Below are positions 1 through 33,247 of a stretch of 64,000 nucleotides of DNA, piece after piece (position 1 is the stretch's first letter; every line of letters starts with the position of its first letter). The stretch lies in NCBI GenBank assembly GCA_964627035.1, contig CAZVKN010000005.1, positions 652-64,651 on the forward strand, in the 5' to 3' direction. The DNA comes from an uncultured bacterium (lineage in GTDB: Bacteria; Electryoneota; AABM5-125-24; Hatepunaeales; Hatepunaeaceae). The notes under the pieces were generated by a model that did not search any database, was not told the origin of the DNA, and saw only the letters and a list, made by a program, of their open reading frames with translations. A program made the position numbers and the translations under genes.

Positions 1-263
1 CGGTTACATTAACCGTAGTCACAATGAATGGGACAGGAGGAGAAATCTATGATGAAGTAGAGATGGTCTTGTCAGAAGGTGGTCAATTTTCTGTGTGGAA
101 AGCTTATTTTCTTCCGGATCCACTTTCTGCTACGTGGAAAGTAGAATTAGACACCGGAGGAGAACCAGAGCCTACTTTTGATTTCTACATCCTTAATGAC
201 CCTGATGATGTTGACTTTGGAGATGATAACTGGCTGGATCCATGGTTCCATAGTGCAGACTAA
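1..263 (+). CDS. 3' end of an acidic hypothetical protein; the 5' end lies upstream of the window
   Basis: The frame is open from the window edge (no stop before the ATG at 24) and ends near 263. The product is D/E-rich and a hairpin terminator follows. No recognisable domain. Confidence 0.4.
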   Translation, partial: VTLTVVTMNGTGGEIYDEVEMVLSEGGQFSVWKAYFLPDPLSATWKVELDTGGEPEPTFDFYILNDPDDVDFGDDNWLDPWFHSAD

Positions 264-282
264 CTCTTCGTAGTTAACTCTT

Positions 283-325
283 GACGGGTGAGACAATCCT
301 CACCCGTCAAATTTAAATTCTAAAT
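283..325 (+). terminator. Rho-independent terminator
   Basis: Perfect 12-bp inverted repeat TTGACGGGTGAG/CTCACCCGTCAA with a 7-nt loop, followed by an A/T-rich tail. Confidence 0.55.
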
Positions 326-369
326 TCGGTCAGACTCTTAATGAATAAATTAATAACTCAACATGTGGA

Positions 370-29611: not shown

Positions 29612-29655
29612 TGCCGTAGGGTTCTCACGCCCTACGGCATTTCTTCTTACCTTAG
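29612..29655 (+). terminator. Rho-independent terminator for galE; bidirectional with the nearby 29573..29595 hairpin for the convergent gene
   Basis: atgccgtaggg-ttctcacg-ccctacggcat, an 11-bp stem, then ttcttctt. A second hairpin agggcggac-tgaaa-gtccgccct lies at about 29573. Confidence 0.6.
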
Positions 29656-29686
29656 TAGTGTCTTGATGTCAAGTGCTGTTAGACAC

Positions 29687-32600
29687 TTATTTAATCAATG
29701 TCAGCTTCTGCTGAGCAACCTGTGCGTCTGACTGCAAACGGACGATGTAAACGCCACTCGGCATGTCTATGCCGTTGACAGATGCTGTATGGTAACCTGC
29801 CGACTGTACTCCCGATACCAGCTCGCTCACCAAACGACCTGACAAGTCGTAAAGTGACAGATTAATCGGGCTCGACTCCACCAATGCATAACGAATCAAA
29901 GTCTGGGAGTTGAACGGATTGGGATAGACCGACTCCAAACCGAATGACTCAGGAATTGCCTCTTCGGTCTCACCCAATTCTATCGCCCAGAAGCTGTCAG
30001 TGTGATAGGTCGCTGATCCGGTCATTGTCGTAAATAAAACCGACTGCGATCCCGAACCACGTACCAAACGGACACTTAGCGATGCACCATCAACCGCACC
30101 GTCAATTGCATCCGTTGTTGGATCGTCGCCCCAGACTGCTACACCGGATCTGCCGTCTTCAAGCACACCTGAACCGACAAGTAAATCACCGGAATAAACA
30201 CCGATCTCACCAAAAACCGACTCGTCAGCCATGATCAGCAGACTCATGTTCTGACCCGTGACCGGCAGCTCAGGCAGATTCTTCGGTGCAGATGCTATCT
30301 GACGATGAATTGTTTCGTCACGCTCCGGTGCGCCCTCATCAACAAGCTCCTGAACGTAAACCAAATTAACATCCTCATCAACGCTAAATTGGTAGCCCTG
30401 ACCCTCACGCATCAAACCTATATTGCTGAAGCCGTACTCGGGCACGTAGAAGTGACCGAAACCGTCCTTGGCGATCACAAGATGACCGGTCTCAACCAGT
30501 GCTGAAAGAGCCAGGGTCGCTTCAACACGACGACGCGGATAGTAGGATGACAAGTTCCAACCCTCCAGAAGCACGATCTCGGCATCCGCTACAACGCTTA
30601 AACCTCTGACCTCAAGACGGGCATCACGGTTCATCTTGACCATGTAGCCCTCTTCAAACGCCCAGCCGGGAATGTTGTTGAAATCTTCTGATGGAACAAA
30701 AAACTGTCCTGCACCGTTCTTGACCATCACCAGATCACCGGCTTCGACCAGTGGCGCCATCAAGACAGGAACTTCCTCCTCGTTGGGCTCAATGTTCAAC
30801 GAGACAAGATTCCAGCCAAAGTTCAAACTAAGGTTGCGGAAGGTCTGAACAGGTTCATCAGTCACGTTCATTGTGACGGGAAGATGTGTCTCTCCACCTT
30901 CACCATCATGCTCAAATATCAGCTCACCCTCGAACAGTGCTACCGGCAGCCCGGTTGCATCAAGTGTCATATTGAACAGTTGTGAATCATCCGCTTCTAA
31001 GATGCCTTCTGTCGGCTCAACCTGCATCCAGCCGATGCGCACATCAACCTGCCACACCGCGAGAGCATCAGGCGTCAAACCGGCATTCTCAAGGAGACCG
31101 ACAAATACCCAGCTGTAGATGTCAAATAGATTCGTCATATAGAGTCCACCGGCGCGGGCTCCTTCAAGCTGGAGGTCAGCAACGAACATGATCTCACCGT
31201 CTTCCGGGTTGAGTTTATAGACTCTTGTGTTGGAGGCTCCTTCAACATCGTCCGTGTCACGGGTAAAGATGTACAGGAAGTAGCCGTCGGCATCATCGGG
31301 ATAATAGCCCAGGCTGGTGATGCTGATGTCACCCTCCTTCTCTATCACCGCAACGTTGTTGCCTTCACGGTCATATCCGAAAATGTCGGTTCGTTCGGTA
31401 CAGACCCACAGGATGTCGTTATCGGAATCCCAAGCCACTGCGCGTGCAGGGTTGACTTCCACTTCGTATGAGACTTCGAGGTCACCTTCAGGGGTGAAGC
31501 CGTAAACGACACCGTCATCGCTGCCCCAGATCAGCTCACCGTCAAAGGCAAGGTCGCGCATTCCGTATCGTGATTCGGCAAACTGTGGGAAGCGGTCAAC
31601 CTCTTCGCCATCCTCATTGAGGATGTAAATGAAGTTCTCATCCTGACGATTGTTGCCACCTGAGATGTAGTACAGACCGTCAATGAACACCACGCCTGAC
31701 AGGTAGCTATCCTCAAGTATCTCACCTGCAGCAATCTCCTCACGCAACTCCCACGGATCAGCGTCTGCGCCACCGAGCAGATGACGCGTAACCGACCAGT
31801 CCAGCGGTCCGTCACCGTCATTGGTGACTGTGAACTCGATTCCTTCAACAAGGAAGTCCGGTTCAATGGCATAGTCTATCTCGTCCGGTTCAATGATGCA
31901 GGTGGCTTGAAGAAGCTCTATATCCCACACAACTTCACCAGGTTCTTCCAGCTCAACCGTCTGGCGGTGGGTCAGATAGTCTTCCTTGGTAACAGTAACA
32001 TCAAACGGAATACCGACAGGGGCATTTTCCATTGAATACTCACCGTTCTCATCCGTCAATCGCACGTAATGATGATCGTCAATGCTAAGTTCGACATCTT
32101 CAATCGCATCACCTGAAGACGCTTCGGTCACCGTACCGAGAACATCACCGACAGCACTATCCACACTGATGAACGCTGACATCTGGATCAGAGGCTGATC
32201 CTCGTCATTAAGCTCAATCAGGAGAATTATTTCATAAAGACCTTCATCAATCCCTTCGGGTGTTAAGATCAGCTCAAAGGTGGTCTCTTCACCACCTGCA
32301 ACCACACCTTCATCAGGATCTGCCATGAACCAGGCAGGAACGGTGAGAAAGTCAAGATAGTGACACAACTCTTCACCCGCCGATCCCCAGTTTGGAGGTT
32401 GACCATAATTTCTCTGTTGGTGCCCATCTGTCACACCTCCGACAACACAGTGACCACGACCGTAGTTATAAACTAAGATCCCGGGATGATTGCCTCCACC
32501 GTCAAGTCGGGCGATATTCTGACTCCAATCACTGTTTTCAATATCATCAATGTCGTCCTGTTCATAGTGAACGTGAAACAGCGAACTTCCGCGAAGCAGA

Positions 32601-33247
32601 GTATTCGGTTCCCACTCCATTAGTTCGGCGAGATGATTGTAGTTGTCTTCATCAGGATCACCGCTTACGAGTACCCGACCGTTGCTTGCGCCTCCGCGAG
32701 TGTAGGTCAATCCGCCTGGATGAATAGGAACGACATTGTATTGATTTGTGCCTGTGCTAGCATACATTACACCTCCGGCATCCACCCACTCCTCGATTCG
32801 TTCACGGTTGTCATTGTATGCGCGATTGAAAGCATCCACCTGCTCGCTGTGCACAACCCAGAGGATGTCAAAGTCATCAATTTCAAAGTCGTCAAAAGCA
32901 CCGGACTGAAATCTCTCATACTCTAAACCGTCAACCTGATCCAGTACCTGCTGCCACAGATTCCCTCCCCATGCAGCTCTGTCCTGAAAGAGTGCAAAAA
33001 TGCCCTCTGGCTGATCCCGGCGCGGTCCGGGATTTTCCCGGTCATCCGGTTCAATCAAATCAAATGAAACGTCAAAGGCAACTTCAGACTCTCCCAAACT
33101 TCTGAGCGTAATCTCGGTCGCAACCTCGTCACCATTTTCAATAGCCAATCCGAACCCCATCGGATCAACCACCACCTGCGCATTTGCTGAAAACAGCAGT
33201 CCAAGTGTTAATGCCAGTGTAAGTAAAAAACTTCTTCTAACGTGCAT
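29687..33247 (-). CDS. Giant T9SS-sorted multidomain protein: an N-terminal domain with a ThuA/GATase1-like motif, a CarbopepD_reg-like domain, the shared propeller module and the shared GWNL/IPGW module, with a type-A C-terminal domain
   Basis: Signal peptide MHVRRSFLLTLALTLGLLFSANA. LVYNYGRGHCVVGGVTDGH resembles the ThuA Y.YGKGRVFYT.LGH motif (low confidence). GDVLGTVTEASSGDAIEDVELSIDDHHYVRLTDENGEYSME has a transthyretin-like fold. The module LDWSVTRHLLGGADADPWELREE...YISGGNNRQDENFIYILNEDGEE and the module RNLSLNFGWNLVSLN...FNNIPGWAFEEGY are paralogous to 12095..15673. C-terminal domain VYPNPFNSQTLIRYAL...LSLYDLSGRLV...SGVYIVRL...QKLTLIK. Confidence 0.75.
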   Translation of the reverse strand: MHVRRSFLLTLALTLGLLFSANAQVVVDPMGFGLAIENGDEVATEITLRSLGESEVAFDVSFDLIEPDDRENPGPRRDQPEGIFALFQDRAAWGGNLWQQVLDQVDGLEYERFQSGAFDDFEIDDFDILWVVHSEQVDAFNRAYNDNRERIEEWVDAGGVMYASTGTNQYNVVPIHPGGLTYTRGGASNGRVLVSGDPDEDNYNHLAELMEWEPNTLLRGSSLFHVHYEQDDIDDIENSDWSQNIARLDGGGNHPGILVYNYGRGHCVVGGVTDGHQQRNYGQPPNWGSAGEELCHYLDFLTVPAWFMADPDEGVVAGGEETTFELILTPEGIDEGLYEIILLIELNDEDQPLIQMSAFISVDSAVGDVLGTVTEASSGDAIEDVELSIDDHHYVRLTDENGEYSMENAPVGIPFDVTVTKEDYLTHRQTVELEEPGEVVWDIELLQATCIIEPDEIDYAIEPDFLVEGIEFTVTNDGDGPLDWSVTRHLLGGADADPWELREEIAAGEILEDSYLSGVVFIDGLYYISGGNNRQDENFIYILNEDGEEVDRFPQFAESRYGMRDLAFDGELIWGSDDGVVYGFTPEGDLEVSYEVEVNPARAVAWDSDNDILWVCTERTDIFGYDREGNNVAVIEKEGDISITSLGYYPDDADGYFLYIFTRDTDDVEGASNTRVYKLNPEDGEIMFVADLQLEGARAGGLYMTNLFDIYSWVFVGLLENAGLTPDALAVWQVDVRIGWMQVEPTEGILEADDSQLFNMTLDATGLPVALFEGELIFEHDGEGGETHLPVTMNVTDEPVQTFRNLSLNFGWNLVSLNIEPNEEEVPVLMAPLVEAGDLVMVKNGAGQFFVPSEDFNNIPGWAFEEGYMVKMNRDARLEVRGLSVVADAEIVLLEGWNLSSYYPRRRVEATLALSALVETGHLVIAKDGFGHFYVPEYGFSNIGLMREGQGYQFSVDEDVNLVYVQELVDEGAPERDETIHRQIASAPKNLPELPVTGQNMSLLIMADESVFGEIGVYSGDLLVGSGVLEDGRSGVAVWGDDPTTDAIDGAVDGASLSVRLVRGSGSQSVLFTTMTGSATYHTDSFWAIELGETEEAIPESFGLESVYPNPFNSQTLIRYALVESSPINLSLYDLSGRLVSELVSGVQSAGYHTASVNGIDMPSGVYIVRLQSDAQVAQQKLTLIK

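What the first reader, a model, noticed from the sequence alone, without database searches (positions are those of the whole stretch)
1..33247. 33-kb island of nine consecutive T9SS cargo genes with extremely acidic products
Nine consecutive large ORFs (eight on the minus strand) carry Sec signal peptides and a type-A Por/T9SS C-terminal domain (YPNPFN ... SGIYL.RL ... K..L.K). Their products are conspicuously D/E-rich (runs such as DDEGDQVWSENFGGAGYDRFYDVIEIDDG). The cytoplasmic enzymes in the same window (PPDK, Etf, Icd, Ddl) have ordinary composition. This points to a secreted-proteome adaptation (salt or Ca2+) rather than genome-wide bias. The island contains two C25 (gingipain-like) peptidase-family members, LVIVD propellers, PbH1 beta-helix proteins and SBBP-like propellers. 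No T9SS machinery gene (porK/L/M/N, sov, porU/V) is present in the window.
Basis: partly seen in the sequence, partly recalled or inferred. Interest (0 to 1): 0.55.

Follow-up and report, generated by a model that had tools for sequence, protein, structure and literature searches.

The report
Cluster of acidic, lysine-poor T9SS cargo genes
This is a cluster of genes for large surface or secreted proteins that an uncultured marine bacterium most likely exports through its type IX secretion system; their strong acidity is real, comes from extra aspartate and almost no lysine, and fits a known marine pattern, so the finding is largely ordinary.

Summary
The core observation holds, with corrections. 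Window 1-33247 carries eight genes, not nine, whose products end in a type-A T9SS sorting domain; every one scores above the curated cut-offs. One of the eight is split by a frameshift. The run is interrupted by four non-cargo genes at 24667-29491. A ninth cargo gene lies outside the range at 50378-53524.

The products are very acidic (pI 4.05-4.45, against 4.8-5.6 for most cytoplasmic enzymes). The cause is more Asp and about five-fold less Lys; Glu and Arg do not differ. The mature parts hold only 0.2-1.6% Lys. The same bias occurs in non-T9SS surface proteins of the window and in more than 150 homologues from the same uncultured lineage (labelled Calditrichota or Electryoneota). It is absent from two distant Porphyromonadaceae-type homologues. 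It is therefore a signature of the lineage's surface proteins, consistent with the published marine shift towards acidic secreted proteins. No Ca2+-binding motifs were found.

Of the two C25 genes, the smaller keeps a His/Cys pair and its model's best PDB match is the sortase PorU. The larger appears to have lost the canonical pair. No recognised T9SS core gene lies in the window or within 10 kb of it, but relatives encode PorQ on the same contigs as orthologues of the smaller C25 gene. This is a new member of a known kind, of modest interest.

The parts
376..2580 (+). CTD cargo gene 1 (734 aa): signal peptide, beta-propeller-like repeats, PKD domains, type-A CTD.
   Evidence: PF18962 36.8 bits, TIGR04183 39.2 bits, PKD 36.4 bits. 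Weak PQQ_2 and SBBP-lipoprotein hits only. The start at 376 matches the gene called in public assemblies. pI 4.45.
3632..3910 (-). Truncated duplicate (279 nt, 92% identical) of the 5' end of the neighbouring LVIVD gene. It lies inside the 111-aa ORF 3596-3931.
   Evidence: the repeat finder family D3. tblastn gives 86% amino-acid identity over residues 1-92 only, with nothing further in 2581-3630.
3960..6494 (-). CTD cargo gene 2 (844 aa): LVIVD beta-propeller, DUF1573/HYDIN-like Ig domain, CTD.
   Evidence: LVIVD 42 bits (cut-off 20.2), DUF1573 29.8 bits, PF18962 43.8 bits, partial choice-of-anchor B. pI 4.42.
6564..9314 (-). CTD cargo gene 3, 'C25-small' (916 aa; true start is Met35 of the longest ORF, which runs to 9416). 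It has a clan-CD peptidase domain with a conserved His292/Cys332, beta-sandwich domains (MAM-like), and a CTD.
   Evidence: PF01364 31.5 bits (cut-off 23). His is conserved in 45/45 homologues and Cys in 43/45. The AF2 model has pLDDT 88.4, with His at the end of strand 284-293 and Cys directly after strand 324-331. The Foldseek top hit is PorU 6za2, E = 1e-10.
9593..11881 (-). CTD cargo gene 4 (762 aa): LVIVD beta-propeller and CTD.
   Evidence: LVIVD 38.4 bits, Beta_propel 27.2 bits, PF18962 52.1 bits. The identical protein occurs on 11 public contigs.
12095..15673 (-). CTD cargo gene 5 (1192 aa): beta-propeller-like repeats, CarboxypepD_reg, WD40-like propeller module, CTD. It is a paralogue of 29687-33247.
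   Evidence: CarboxypepD_reg 41.7 bits, PF18962 53.3 bits. It is 39% identical over 794 aa to the product of 29687-33247 and 36% over 502 aa to C25-large residues 1180-1672. In the C25-large family alignment (A1), the segment homologous to this module matches WD40-repeat protein 2ymu, E = 6e-21.
16000..18683 (-). CTD cargo gene 6: right-handed beta-helix protein split by a +1/-1 frameshift near 18270. The pieces are a 152-aa signal-peptide ORF (18225-18683) and a 740-aa ORF (16000-18222) that carries the CTD.
   Evidence: DUF5123 36.6 bits (cut-off 35.1), choice-of-anchor Q 30.5 bits (cut-off 25), weak NosD N-terminus, PF18962 53.8 bits. The frames were read. The same split is present in four independent assemblies.
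19006..24132 (-). CTD cargo gene 7, 'C25-large' (1708 aa): gingipain-type prodomain, C25-like domain without the canonical His/Cys, NIDO-like region, CarboxypepD_reg, WD40-like propeller, CTD.
   Evidence: PF01364 64.4 bits, Propeptide_C25 22.3 bits (cut-off 22), PF18962 49.3 bits. The family profile hits the RgpB prodomain (E = 4e-12), the Kgp prodomain (E = 4e-11) and mature RgpB (E = 1e-6). Catalytic columns were examined.
24667..29491 (.). Four non-cargo genes that interrupt the run: NfeD (24667-25995, -), DUF6029 outer-membrane barrel (26064-27608, -), TlpA/ResA-like thioredoxin (27648-28202, -), GalE-like epimerase (28469-29491, +).
   Evidence: Pfam and NCBIfam hits. None has a CTD.
29687..33247 (-). 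CTD cargo gene 8 (1186 aa), a paralogue of 12095-15673.
   Evidence: PF18962 37.8 bits, TIGR04183 48.8 bits, CarboxypepD_reg 31.8 bits (just below the 32.3 cut-off). Paralogy shown. pI 4.05, net charge -162.
50378..53524 (-). Ninth CTD cargo gene (1048 aa), outside the stated range. No other recognisable domain.
   Evidence: PF18962 39.3 bits, TIGR04183 39.8 bits. Nothing else is significant in Pfam even at E <= 5. pI 4.06.
9594..9859 (-). CTD-coding 3' cassette. Near-identical copies lie at 12104-12337, 16001-16266 and 19007-19272, which is the 3' end of four consecutive genes.
   Evidence: the repeat finder families D1, D2 and D4: 74-89% nucleotide identity. At protein level the four CTDs are 65-79% identical to each other, against 34-45% to the other five.

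Best explanation
The region is a cluster of independently transcribed genes for large surface-anchored or secreted proteins. The host is an uncultured bacterium from marine oxygen-deficient water, in the FCB superphylum. Its closest named relatives are labelled Calditrichota or Candidatus Electryoneota.

Inferred export route, by analogy with Bacteroidota: each product crosses the inner membrane by Sec, folds in the periplasm, and is recognised by its about 80-residue type-A C-terminal domain and passed through the type IX secretion system. The CTD is then normally cut off and the passenger is fixed to the cell surface.

The passengers are binding or scaffold modules (LVIVD and WD40-like propellers, PKD and Ig domains, a beta-helix). 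There is also one probably active clan-CD cysteine peptidase and one gingipain-like protein that has probably lost catalysis. This fits the protein-degrading lifestyle inferred for the lineage.

The cluster grew by local duplication and domain shuffling. Evidence: two paralogous 1190-aa genes, a module shared with the large C25 protein, a truncated tandem copy, and a CTD cassette homogenised across four neighbouring genes.

The extreme acidity belongs to all surface-exposed proteins of this lineage. It comes from more Asp and near-elimination of Lys, with Arg kept. The most likely reading is the known acid shift of marine secreted proteins, taken to an unusually low Lys content.
For: Shown:
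- CTDs exceed curated cut-offs in nine genes, and the CTD alignment is clean.
- The window equals positions about 57450-121449 of a 195-kb scaffold from sample SAMN10231903. A sibling sample, SAMN10231904, is described in a paper section on marine oxygen-minimum and oxygen-deficient water columns, as the source of a water-column genome (PMC12220078).
- Homologues of both C25 genes are named Calditrichota, Ca. Hatepunaea or Electryoneaceae. That phylum is placed in FCB and described as protein-degrading (PMC9324843).
- Paralogy and shared modules; DNA repeats.
- Spacers of 69-529 bp separate the genes. Several spacers contain GC-rich hairpins, and a TTGACA-N17-TATAAT site lies upstream of 24132.
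- Composition: cargo median pI is 4.2 against 5.2 for cytoplasmic proteins; Asp 8.9% against 6.3%; Lys 1.1% against 5.0%; Glu and Arg are not significantly different.
- Passengers hold 0.16-1.6% Lys, while the cleavable CTDs hold 1.3-8.7%.
- Non-CTD surface proteins hold 0.5-1.9% Lys. The periplasmic, secretin and inner-membrane-associated proteins checked (NfeD, TlpA-like, Wza-like, secretin) hold 4.5-10.9%.
- Lineage homologues share the bias (n = 120 and n = 38). Two distant Porphyromonadaceae-type homologues have pI 7.7-8.7 and about 6% Lys.
- Cargo genes have equal or lower GC than the rest of the window, so codon bias does not explain the low Lys.
- In published marine-versus-freshwater comparisons the acidic pI shift is strongest in secreted proteins, and one pair shows Lys replaced by Arg (PMC6706942).
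- PorQ orthologues sit on the same contigs as C25-small orthologues in relatives.

Inferred, not shown: actual secretion, CTD cleavage, surface attachment, and the physiological reason for the composition.
Against: - No T9SS core gene was found in the 84 kb that could be examined. The rest of this genome could not be reached, and it is not among the GTDB representatives.
- Seawater is only moderately saline, and Lys near 1% is lower than I would expect for ordinary marine secretomes (own knowledge, not measured here). Salt may therefore not be the whole story.
- Only one 64-kb window was sampled: nine cytoplasmic proteins against nine cargo proteins.
- Signal peptides were judged by eye.
- The beta-helix gene is frameshifted, so not every member need be functional.
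Confidence: 0.75

Rival explanations
1. The island does contain T9SS machinery. On this reading the 916-aa C25-small protein (6564-9314) is this lineage's compact equivalent of PorU, the CTD signal peptidase and sortase, which is itself a CTD-bearing C25-family protein.
For: - The best PDB fold match of the high-confidence model (pLDDT 88.4) is P. gingivalis PorU 6za2, ranks 1-2, E = 1e-10, aligned over about 1000 columns.
- His and Cys are essentially invariant in the family.
- The family is length-conserved (about 920 aa) and 42-62% identical across the lineage, which is more typical of a core component than of variable cargo.
- In three relatives its gene lies about 2.5 kb from a PorQ-family gene in a conserved block: PriA, Peptidase_MA_2, PorQ, a Zn-ribbon protein, a periplasmic binding protein, C25-small, AhpC.
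Against: - The NCBIfam PorU model NF033707 matches only the CTD (17.5 bits against a cut-off of 420).
- The family profile finds neither PorU nor gingipain in PDB sequences.
- The Foldseek TM-score is only 0.17, and generic multi-Ig proteins score nearly as well.
- The catalytic domain is N-terminal, so the three N-terminal domains described for PorU are absent (own knowledge of the 6ZA2 paper).
- His-Cys spacing is 40 residues, against 33 in PorU and gingipains (own knowledge).
- No porV-like gene is adjacent.
- The PorQ block exists without C25-small in another relative.
- The gene context differs in the 62% relative and in this window.
Confidence: 0.15
2. The near-absence of lysine in surface proteins is self-protection against the cell's own, or neighbours', Lys-directed extracellular proteolysis, rather than a response to salt.
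For: - Depletion is selective for Lys, while Arg is unchanged.
- It affects surface-exposed proteins whatever their export route, but not periplasmic ones.
- Lys is tolerated in the CTD, which is removed.
- The island encodes a probably active clan-CD peptidase, and the lineage is described as proteolytic (PMC9324843).
Against: - The specificity of the peptidase is unknown.
- Low Lys with retained Arg and raised Asp is also the classical halophilic signature (own knowledge) and matches marine-versus-freshwater trends.
- No experiment or specificity-pocket analysis was possible.
Confidence: 0.1
3. The Asp-rich composition reflects Ca2+ (or Mg2+) binding by the passenger domains.
For: - Asp rather than Glu is the enriched acid.
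- DxDxD-type triplets occur 11 times in cargo and 0 times in cytoplasmic proteins.
- Many propeller and Ig-like extracellular domains bind Ca2+ (own knowledge).
Against: - There is no DxDxDG motif in 9134 residues.
- There are no TSP3, RTX, cadherin or Calx-beta Pfam hits.
- The enrichment is diffuse over unrelated folds and is accompanied by Lys loss, which Ca2+ binding does not explain.
Confidence: 0.1
4. The cluster is a horizontally acquired genomic island.
For: - GC is somewhat lower at 1-12 kb (0.39-0.47) than in the housekeeping half of the window (0.46-0.51).
- Gene neighbourhoods of the two C25 genes differ between relatives.
Against: - There is no tRNA, and no integrase, transposase or flanking-repeat signature among the ORFs scanned.
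- Homologues of both C25 genes come overwhelmingly from the same lineage.
- Local duplication explains much of the content.
Confidence: 0.07

Closest known systems
Type-A CTD cargo proteins of the Bacteroidota type IX secretion system (for example P. gingivalis gingipains; F. johnsoniae endonuclease NucA)
   Same: Sec signal peptide plus a C-terminal domain of about 80 residues that matches TIGR04183/PF18962 above cut-off. The CTD profile also aligns with the CTD chain of PDB 8glk. The passengers are large, beta-rich and multidomain.
   Different: The host is outside Bacteroidota, in a lineage labelled Calditrichota or Electryoneota. I found no paper in the searchable library that mentions T9SS together with these taxa. 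Passengers are nearly Lys-free. Export was not shown.
Gingipains RgpB and Kgp (peptidase family C25, clan CD)
   Same: C25-large has a gingipain-type prodomain and a catalytic-domain homologue, and ends in a CTD. C25-small has a His/Cys pair at the ends of adjacent strands, as in clan CD.
   Different: In C25-large, hhalign places RgpB His211 on an invariant Arg and Cys244 on Thr or Ala. The family's alternative motifs SGHGEW and T(C)GWGG are also missing in the window's clade, which has NGIGDY and Phe. C25-small has no prodomain, no detectable sequence similarity to gingipains in PDB, and a 40-residue His-Cys spacing.
PorU, the T9SS C-terminal signal peptidase and sortase (PDB 6ZA2)
   Same: It is the best structural match of the C25-small model. 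Both are C25-type domains followed by Ig-like domains and a CTD. C25-small orthologues lie near PorQ genes in three relatives.
   Different: It fails the curated PorU model. It is about 240 residues shorter and lacks the N-terminal domain cluster. It is not next to porV. The link to PorQ is not universal.
Acidic shift of marine and halophile secreted proteomes (Cabello-Yeves and Rodriguez-Valera 2019, PMC6706942)
   Same: Secreted proteins are more acidic than cytoplasmic ones, and membrane proteins are basic. Lys is lowered while Arg is kept.
   Different: The degree is greater: mature passengers hold 0.2-1.6% Lys and have pI near 4.05-4.3. No freshwater sister was available to prove the link with salinity.
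Recombination-homogenised C-terminal regions of P. gingivalis RgpA, Kgp and HagA (own knowledge)
   Same: Unrelated or diverged passengers share a nearly identical C-terminal cassette: four adjacent genes at 74-89% nucleotide identity.
   Different: Here only the CTD of about 85 residues is shared, not adhesin domains. The four genes are tandem neighbours.

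Membership tests
T9SS type-A CTD cargo (TIGR04183 / PF18962) | C-terminal sorting domain matching the curated model, at the extreme C-terminus | tested here: met
   Nine proteins score 39.2-56.2 bits against a cut-off of 23 (TIGR04183) and 36.8-53.8 bits against 27 (PF18962). All matches end within about 5 residues of the stop codon.
T9SS type-A CTD cargo (TIGR04183 / PF18962) | N-terminal Sec signal peptide | tested here: inconclusive
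   All nine have a short charged N-terminus, a hydrophobic stretch and an Ala-X-Ala-like site, judged by eye. No signal-peptide predictor was available.
T9SS type-A CTD cargo (TIGR04183 / PF18962) | T9SS core machinery encoded in the same genome | not testable with these tools
   No core gene lies in the window or within 10 kb of it. The genome is not in the GTDB set. Relatives with orthologous cargo encode PorQ on the same contig, which gives lineage-level support only.
Peptidase family C25 (gingipain) | Match to PF01364 above the gathering score | tested here: met
   C25-large scores 64.4 bits and C25-small 31.5 bits, against a cut-off of 23.
Peptidase family C25 (gingipain) | Catalytic His/Cys pair (C25-small) | tested here: met
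   His292 is conserved in 45/45 homologues and Cys332 in 43/45. They sit at the ends of consecutive strands in a model with pLDDT 88. Equivalence to the gingipain residues was not shown by direct alignment.
Peptidase family C25 (gingipain) | Catalytic His/Cys pair (C25-large) | tested here: not met
   hhalign (probability 91%) puts RgpB His211 on an invariant Arg and Cys244 on Thr or Ala. The window's clade also lacks the family's alternative His and Cys. The AF2 model was too poor to confirm this.
PorU T9SS sortase (NF033707) | Score above the curated equivalog cut-off over the catalytic region | tested here: not met
   Scores are 17.5-22.3 bits against a cut-off of 420, and only model positions about 995-1078 (the CTD) are matched.
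PorU T9SS sortase (NF033707) | Fold and domain order similar to solved PorU | tested here: inconclusive
LVIVD repeat propeller (PF08309) | Match above the gathering score | tested here: met
   42.0 and 38.4 bits against a cut-off of 20.2, for 3960-6494 and 9593-11881.
SBBP repeat (PF06739) | Match to the Pfam model | tested here: not met
   No hit even at E <= 5. Only NF047494 at 20-29 bits against a cut-off of 400, and PQQ_2 at 14.8 bits.
Right-handed beta-helix (PF13229 / PbH1) | Match to PF13229 | tested here: not met
   PF13229 is not among the hits. Related beta-helix families do pass: DUF5123 at 36.6 bits against 35.1, and choice-of-anchor Q at 30.5 bits against 25.
'Salt-in' halophile proteome | Cytoplasmic proteins also strongly acidic and Lys-poor | tested here: not met
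   Cytoplasmic proteins have median pI 5.17 and 5.0% Lys.

The most novel reading that the evidence does not exclude
The surface proteome of this lineage has been almost purged of lysine. Mature passengers hold 0.2-1.6% Lys, against 4-7% in the cytoplasm. Arg is untouched, and Lys is tolerated only in the CTD that is cut off. The novel reading is that this is compositional self-immunity: the cell coats itself with a Lys-directed clan-CD peptidase (C25-small, or a PorU-like enzyme), and lysine-free neighbours cannot be cleaved or mis-ligated by it.
Probability: 0.08. Interest if true: 0.55.

Novelty: new member of a known kind. Interest (0 to 1): 0.3.

Why it matters
The finding documents that the hallmark T9SS cargo signal is abundant and locally amplified in an uncultured marine lineage (labelled Calditrichota or Electryoneota). 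No paper in the searchable library discusses T9SS for these taxa. Three things here are testable:
- an extreme lysine avoidance in every surface-exposed protein;
- a conserved gingipain-like protein that seems to have lost its catalytic pair;
- a compact C25 protein whose best PDB fold match is the sortase PorU.

None of these overturns current understanding. A specialist would expect FCB bacteria to have clustered, acidic T9SS cargo.

Tried and rejected
- A GTDB genome scan with the Ddl protein found no close genome. The best hit was 54% identical, and the next were Muribaculaceae at 40-43%. The rest of the genome could therefore not be inspected.
- Cluster look-ups gave no names or accessions.
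- Literature searches pairing T9SS with Calditrichota, Caldithrix or Electryoneota returned nothing.
- The AF2 model of the C25-large catalytic domain, built from a 12-sequence alignment, failed (pLDDT 43) and was not used.
- Frameshift as phase variation: rejected. There is no homopolymer or repeat at the site. The apparent split of the orthologue in L018 is a scaffold gap of Ns.
- Shared upstream regulatory motif: none was found among the nine upstream regions. The consensus promoter and terminator scan was no better than shuffled sequence.
- LVIVD double-propeller proteins as PorZ equivalents: no PDB sequence hit, and they do not neighbour C25-small in relatives. This was left untested structurally because no prediction jobs remained.
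- P0175 as a possible PorU: no NCBIfam hit.
- The attempt to find a PorQ gene in the same samples as the window failed. The three candidates looked up came from other samples.
- hhalign of the C25-small profile against the C25-large profile was not significant (probability 0.3%).

Full report
**Observation**

ORF listing and translation followed by Pfam and NCBIfam scans show nine proteins in the window that end in a type-A T9SS sorting domain. PF18962 scores are 36.8-53.8 bits against a gathering score of 27. TIGR04183 scores are 39.2-56.2 bits against a cut-off of 23.

Eight of the nine genes lie inside the stated range:
- 376-2580 (+)
- 3960-6494 (-)
- 6564-9314 (-)
- 9593-11881 (-)
- 12095-15673 (-)
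- 16000-18683 (-)
- 19006-24132 (-)
- 29687-33247 (-)

The ninth is at 50378-53524 (-). The gene at 16000-18683 is split by a frameshift into a 152-aa signal-peptide ORF and a 740-aa ORF that carries the CTD. The same split is present in four independent public assemblies.

The genes are not strictly consecutive. NfeD, a DUF6029 outer-membrane barrel, a TlpA/ResA-like thioredoxin and a GalE-like epimerase occupy 24667-29491. The quoted acidic run exists, slightly mis-transcribed, in the product of 12095-15673.

**Source and organism**

The 762-aa LVIVD protein, and the other window proteins that were looked up, occur identically on contigs from several marine metagenomes. The window corresponds to positions about 57450-121449 of a 195.3-kb scaffold from sample SAMN10231903. 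A paper names a genome from the sibling sample SAMN10231904 as originating from the marine water column, in a section on oxygen-minimum and oxygen-deficient zones (PMC12220078).

The genome is not among the GTDB species representatives. The best Ddl match was 54% identical, and the next were Bacteroidales at 40-43%. Homologues of both C25 proteins that carry names are labelled Calditrichota, Calditrichaeota, Candidatus Hatepunaea meridiana or Electryoneaceae. Electryoneota (formerly AABM5-125-24) is an FCB-superphylum candidate phylum whose members are described as oriented towards protein degradation (PMC9324843).

**Domain content**

- LVIVD propellers are confirmed in two genes.
- A right-handed beta-helix is supported by DUF5123, choice-of-anchor Q and a weak NosD hit, but not by PF13229.
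- SBBP (PF06739) is not detected even at E <= 5. Only weak SBBP-lipoprotein and PQQ-like hits support a propeller in the N-terminal repeats of 376-2580 and 12095-15673.
- All-against-all BLASTP shows that the products of 12095-15673 and 29687-33247 are paralogues (39% identical over 794 aa). A module of about 460-500 aa is shared with residues 1180-1672 of the large C25 protein. It consists of CarboxypepD_reg plus a propeller that matches WD40-type PDB chains at E = 6e-21 with the family profile.

**The two C25 genes differ**

C25-small (916 aa; the true start is Met35 of the longest ORF):
- It belongs to a family about 920 aa long and 42-62% identical across the lineage.
- His292 is conserved in 45/45 members and Cys332 in 43/45.
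- In a model with pLDDT 88.4 the two residues sit at the ends of consecutive beta-strands, the clan-CD arrangement. It is probably an active cysteine peptidase.
- Its best PDB fold match is the T9SS sortase PorU (6za2, E = 1e-10). However, the TM-score is 0.17 and generic multi-Ig proteins score close behind.
- It fails the curated PorU model, with only the CTD matching.

C25-large (1708 aa):
- It belongs to a family of more than 200 proteins (219 hits at E <= 1e-5), of which the 120 best listed are about 43-71% identical over the N-terminal 1180 residues.
- The family profile hits the RgpB and Kgp prodomains (E = 4e-12 and 4e-11) and the RgpB mature domain (E = 1e-6).
- hhalign (probability 91%) places RgpB His211 on an invariant Arg and Cys244 on Thr or Ala.
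- Most family members have an alternative SGHGEW motif, and some have a T-C-GWGG motif. The window's clade has NGIGDY and Phe at those positions.
- The window's copy is therefore probably non-catalytic. An AF2 model meant to confirm this failed (pLDDT 43).

**Composition**

| Group | pI | Asp | Lys |
|---|---|---|---|
| Cargo (9 proteins) | 4.05-4.45 | median 8.9% | median 1.1% |
| Cytoplasmic (9 proteins) | median 5.17 | median 6.3% | median 5.0% |
| Polytopic membrane proteins | 8.6-9.6 | not compared | not compared |

The cargo-versus-cytoplasmic difference is significant (Mann-Whitney p = 4e-4 for pI, net charge and Lys; p = 6e-4 for Asp). Glu (p = 0.33) and Arg (p = 0.54) do not differ.

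Further details:
- Mature passengers hold only 0.16-1.6% Lys; one has a single Lys in 635 residues.
- The cleavable CTDs hold 1.3-8.7% Lys and are neutral to basic.
- The bias is not T9SS-specific. Two lipoprotein-like surface proteins (47083, 57998), the 45618 product and the DUF6029 barrel hold 0.5-1.9% Lys.
- Periplasmic or inner-membrane-associated proteins (TlpA-like, Wza-like, secretin, NfeD) hold 4.5-10.9% Lys.

The bias is not island-specific either. The 120 C25-large homologues have median pI 4.27 and median Lys 1.5%. The 38 C25-small homologues have median pI 4.37 and median Lys 1.4%. Two distant Porphyromonadaceae-type homologues have pI 7.7-8.7 and about 6% Lys. Cargo genes have equal or lower GC than the rest of the window, so codon bias is not the cause. 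No DxDxDG motif and no TSP3 or RTX domains were found.

Published comparisons show that marine microbes have more acidic proteins than freshwater relatives, with the shift ordered secreted > cytoplasmic > membrane. One pair also shows Lys replaced by Arg (PMC6706942). The window therefore shows a strong case of a known pattern.

**How the cluster is built**

- The last 240-266 nt of four consecutive genes (9593, 12095, 16000 and 19006) are 74-89% identical at DNA level. Their CTDs are 65-79% identical, against 34-45% to the other five. This points to recent duplication or gene conversion of the CTD cassette between neighbours with unrelated passengers.
- A 279-nt copy (92% identical) of the 5' end of the LVIVD gene 3960-6494 lies immediately downstream at 3632-3910. 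Nothing recognisable follows it.
- Spacers of 69-529 bp separate the genes. Several spacers carry GC-rich hairpins, and a TTGACA-N17-TATAAT site lies upstream of 24132, which suggests separate transcription units. The consensus scan was not above shuffled sequence, and no shared upstream motif was found.
- There is no tRNA or mobility gene.
- In the 71% relative, C25-large is again followed by a DUF5123 + CTD gene and then by other CTD genes (ice-binding-like), but the upstream genes differ. Such cargo clusters are therefore common in the lineage but variable in content.

**T9SS machinery**

NCBIfam scans of every ORF of at least 150 aa found no T9SS core component. The 10-kb flanks hold 2-oxoacid:ferredoxin oxidoreductase and succinyl-CoA ligase genes on one side and a type IV pilus cluster on the other.

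In three relatives, the C25-small orthologue lies in a conserved block: PriA, Peptidase_MA_2, a 330-339-aa protein, a Zn-ribbon protein, a periplasmic binding protein, C25-small, AhpC. The 330-339-aa protein matches T9SS PorQ (E = 8e-31 and 4e-37). One copy exceeds the PorV/PorQ family cut-off at 95.6 bits against 90. Its homologues elsewhere are named PorQ in Ignavibacteria and Bacteroidota. Organisms that carry these cargo families therefore have at least one T9SS outer-membrane component. In another relative the PorQ block lacks C25-small, and the 62% relative has yet another context, so the linkage is loose. I could not locate a PorQ gene from the window's own samples.

**Verdict**

The most likely reading (about 0.75) is an ordinary, locally amplified cluster of T9SS cargo genes for surface proteins of a marine FCB bacterium. 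Its acidic, Lys-poor composition is the lineage's general surface-protein signature, consistent with seawater exposure.

Rival readings:
- C25-small is a compact PorU-like sortase (about 0.15).
- Lys avoidance is protease self-protection (about 0.1).
- Ca2+ binding (about 0.1).
- Horizontal acquisition (about 0.07).

This is a new member of a known kind. The extreme Lys avoidance, the probable pseudo-gingipain and the PorU-like fold are worth a note, but none is surprising enough to rank the finding high.

Noticed in passing
window 376-33247 (N-termini of cargo genes): Five of the nine CTD proteins (genes at 370, 3960, 9593, 12095 and 29687), plus the duplicated fragment at 3596-3931, have Ala-Gln at the likely signal-peptidase site (...FAQP, ...QAQP, ...NAQV). 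This resembles the Bacteroidetes 'Q-rule', in which mature proteins start with N-terminal pyroglutamate (own knowledge). Here it appears outside Bacteroidota.
   Followed up: no
window 53948-63809 and about 7 kb beyond the window end (L021): A type IV pilus or T2SS-like cluster. It holds a prepilin peptidase, PilC/GspF, an MshE-type ATPase with an N-terminal c-di-GMP-binding domain (NF053729, 53.7 bits), a 1064-aa Big_1/invasin-like lipoprotein, a Wza-like exporter and a secretin. PilM, PilO and a second T2SSE-family ATPase follow.
   Followed up: partly
window 16000-18683: The beta-helix cargo gene carries a frameshift near 18270. The site is not in a homopolymer or repeat, and the shift is present in four assemblies. 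It is probably a fixed pseudogene or a two-piece gene. The apparent split of its orthologue in L018 is only a scaffold gap.
   Followed up: yes
window 2581-3630: About 1 kb of low-GC sequence (0.39) without a convincing ORF lies between the plus-strand cargo gene and the truncated LVIVD duplicate. One public variant (L005) has no gene called where the 111-aa fragment ORF lies in the other assemblies, so the region may vary between strains.
   Followed up: partly
window 26064-28202: A DUF6029 outer-membrane barrel (514 aa, Lys 1.9%) is paired with a TlpA/ResA-like periplasmic thioredoxin that is unusually Lys-rich (10.9%). The contrast is sharp for two adjacent envelope proteins.
   Followed up: no
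C25-large family (P0017-P0136; window 19006-24132): Most family members carry the conserved motifs SGHGEW and T-C-GWGG one strand downstream of where hhalign places the gingipain His and Cys. The canonical His position is an invariant Arg. This could be a relocated or altered active site in a conserved T9SS protein of 1700-2000 aa.
   Followed up: partly
L024 3651-5222 (62% relative of C25-small): A CD-NTase (SMODS / CD_NTase_C) gene followed by a Cap15-like effector gene, that is a CBASS-type defence pair, lies about 5 kb upstream of the C25-small orthologue.
   Followed up: no
L018/L019 14570-20213 (71% relative of C25-large): Tandem repeats of a three-gene unit: an ice-binding-like CTD protein, a DUF5670 protein and a small outer-membrane beta-barrel. 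They lie next to the C25-large orthologue and are another locally amplified T9SS cargo array in the lineage.
   Followed up: no
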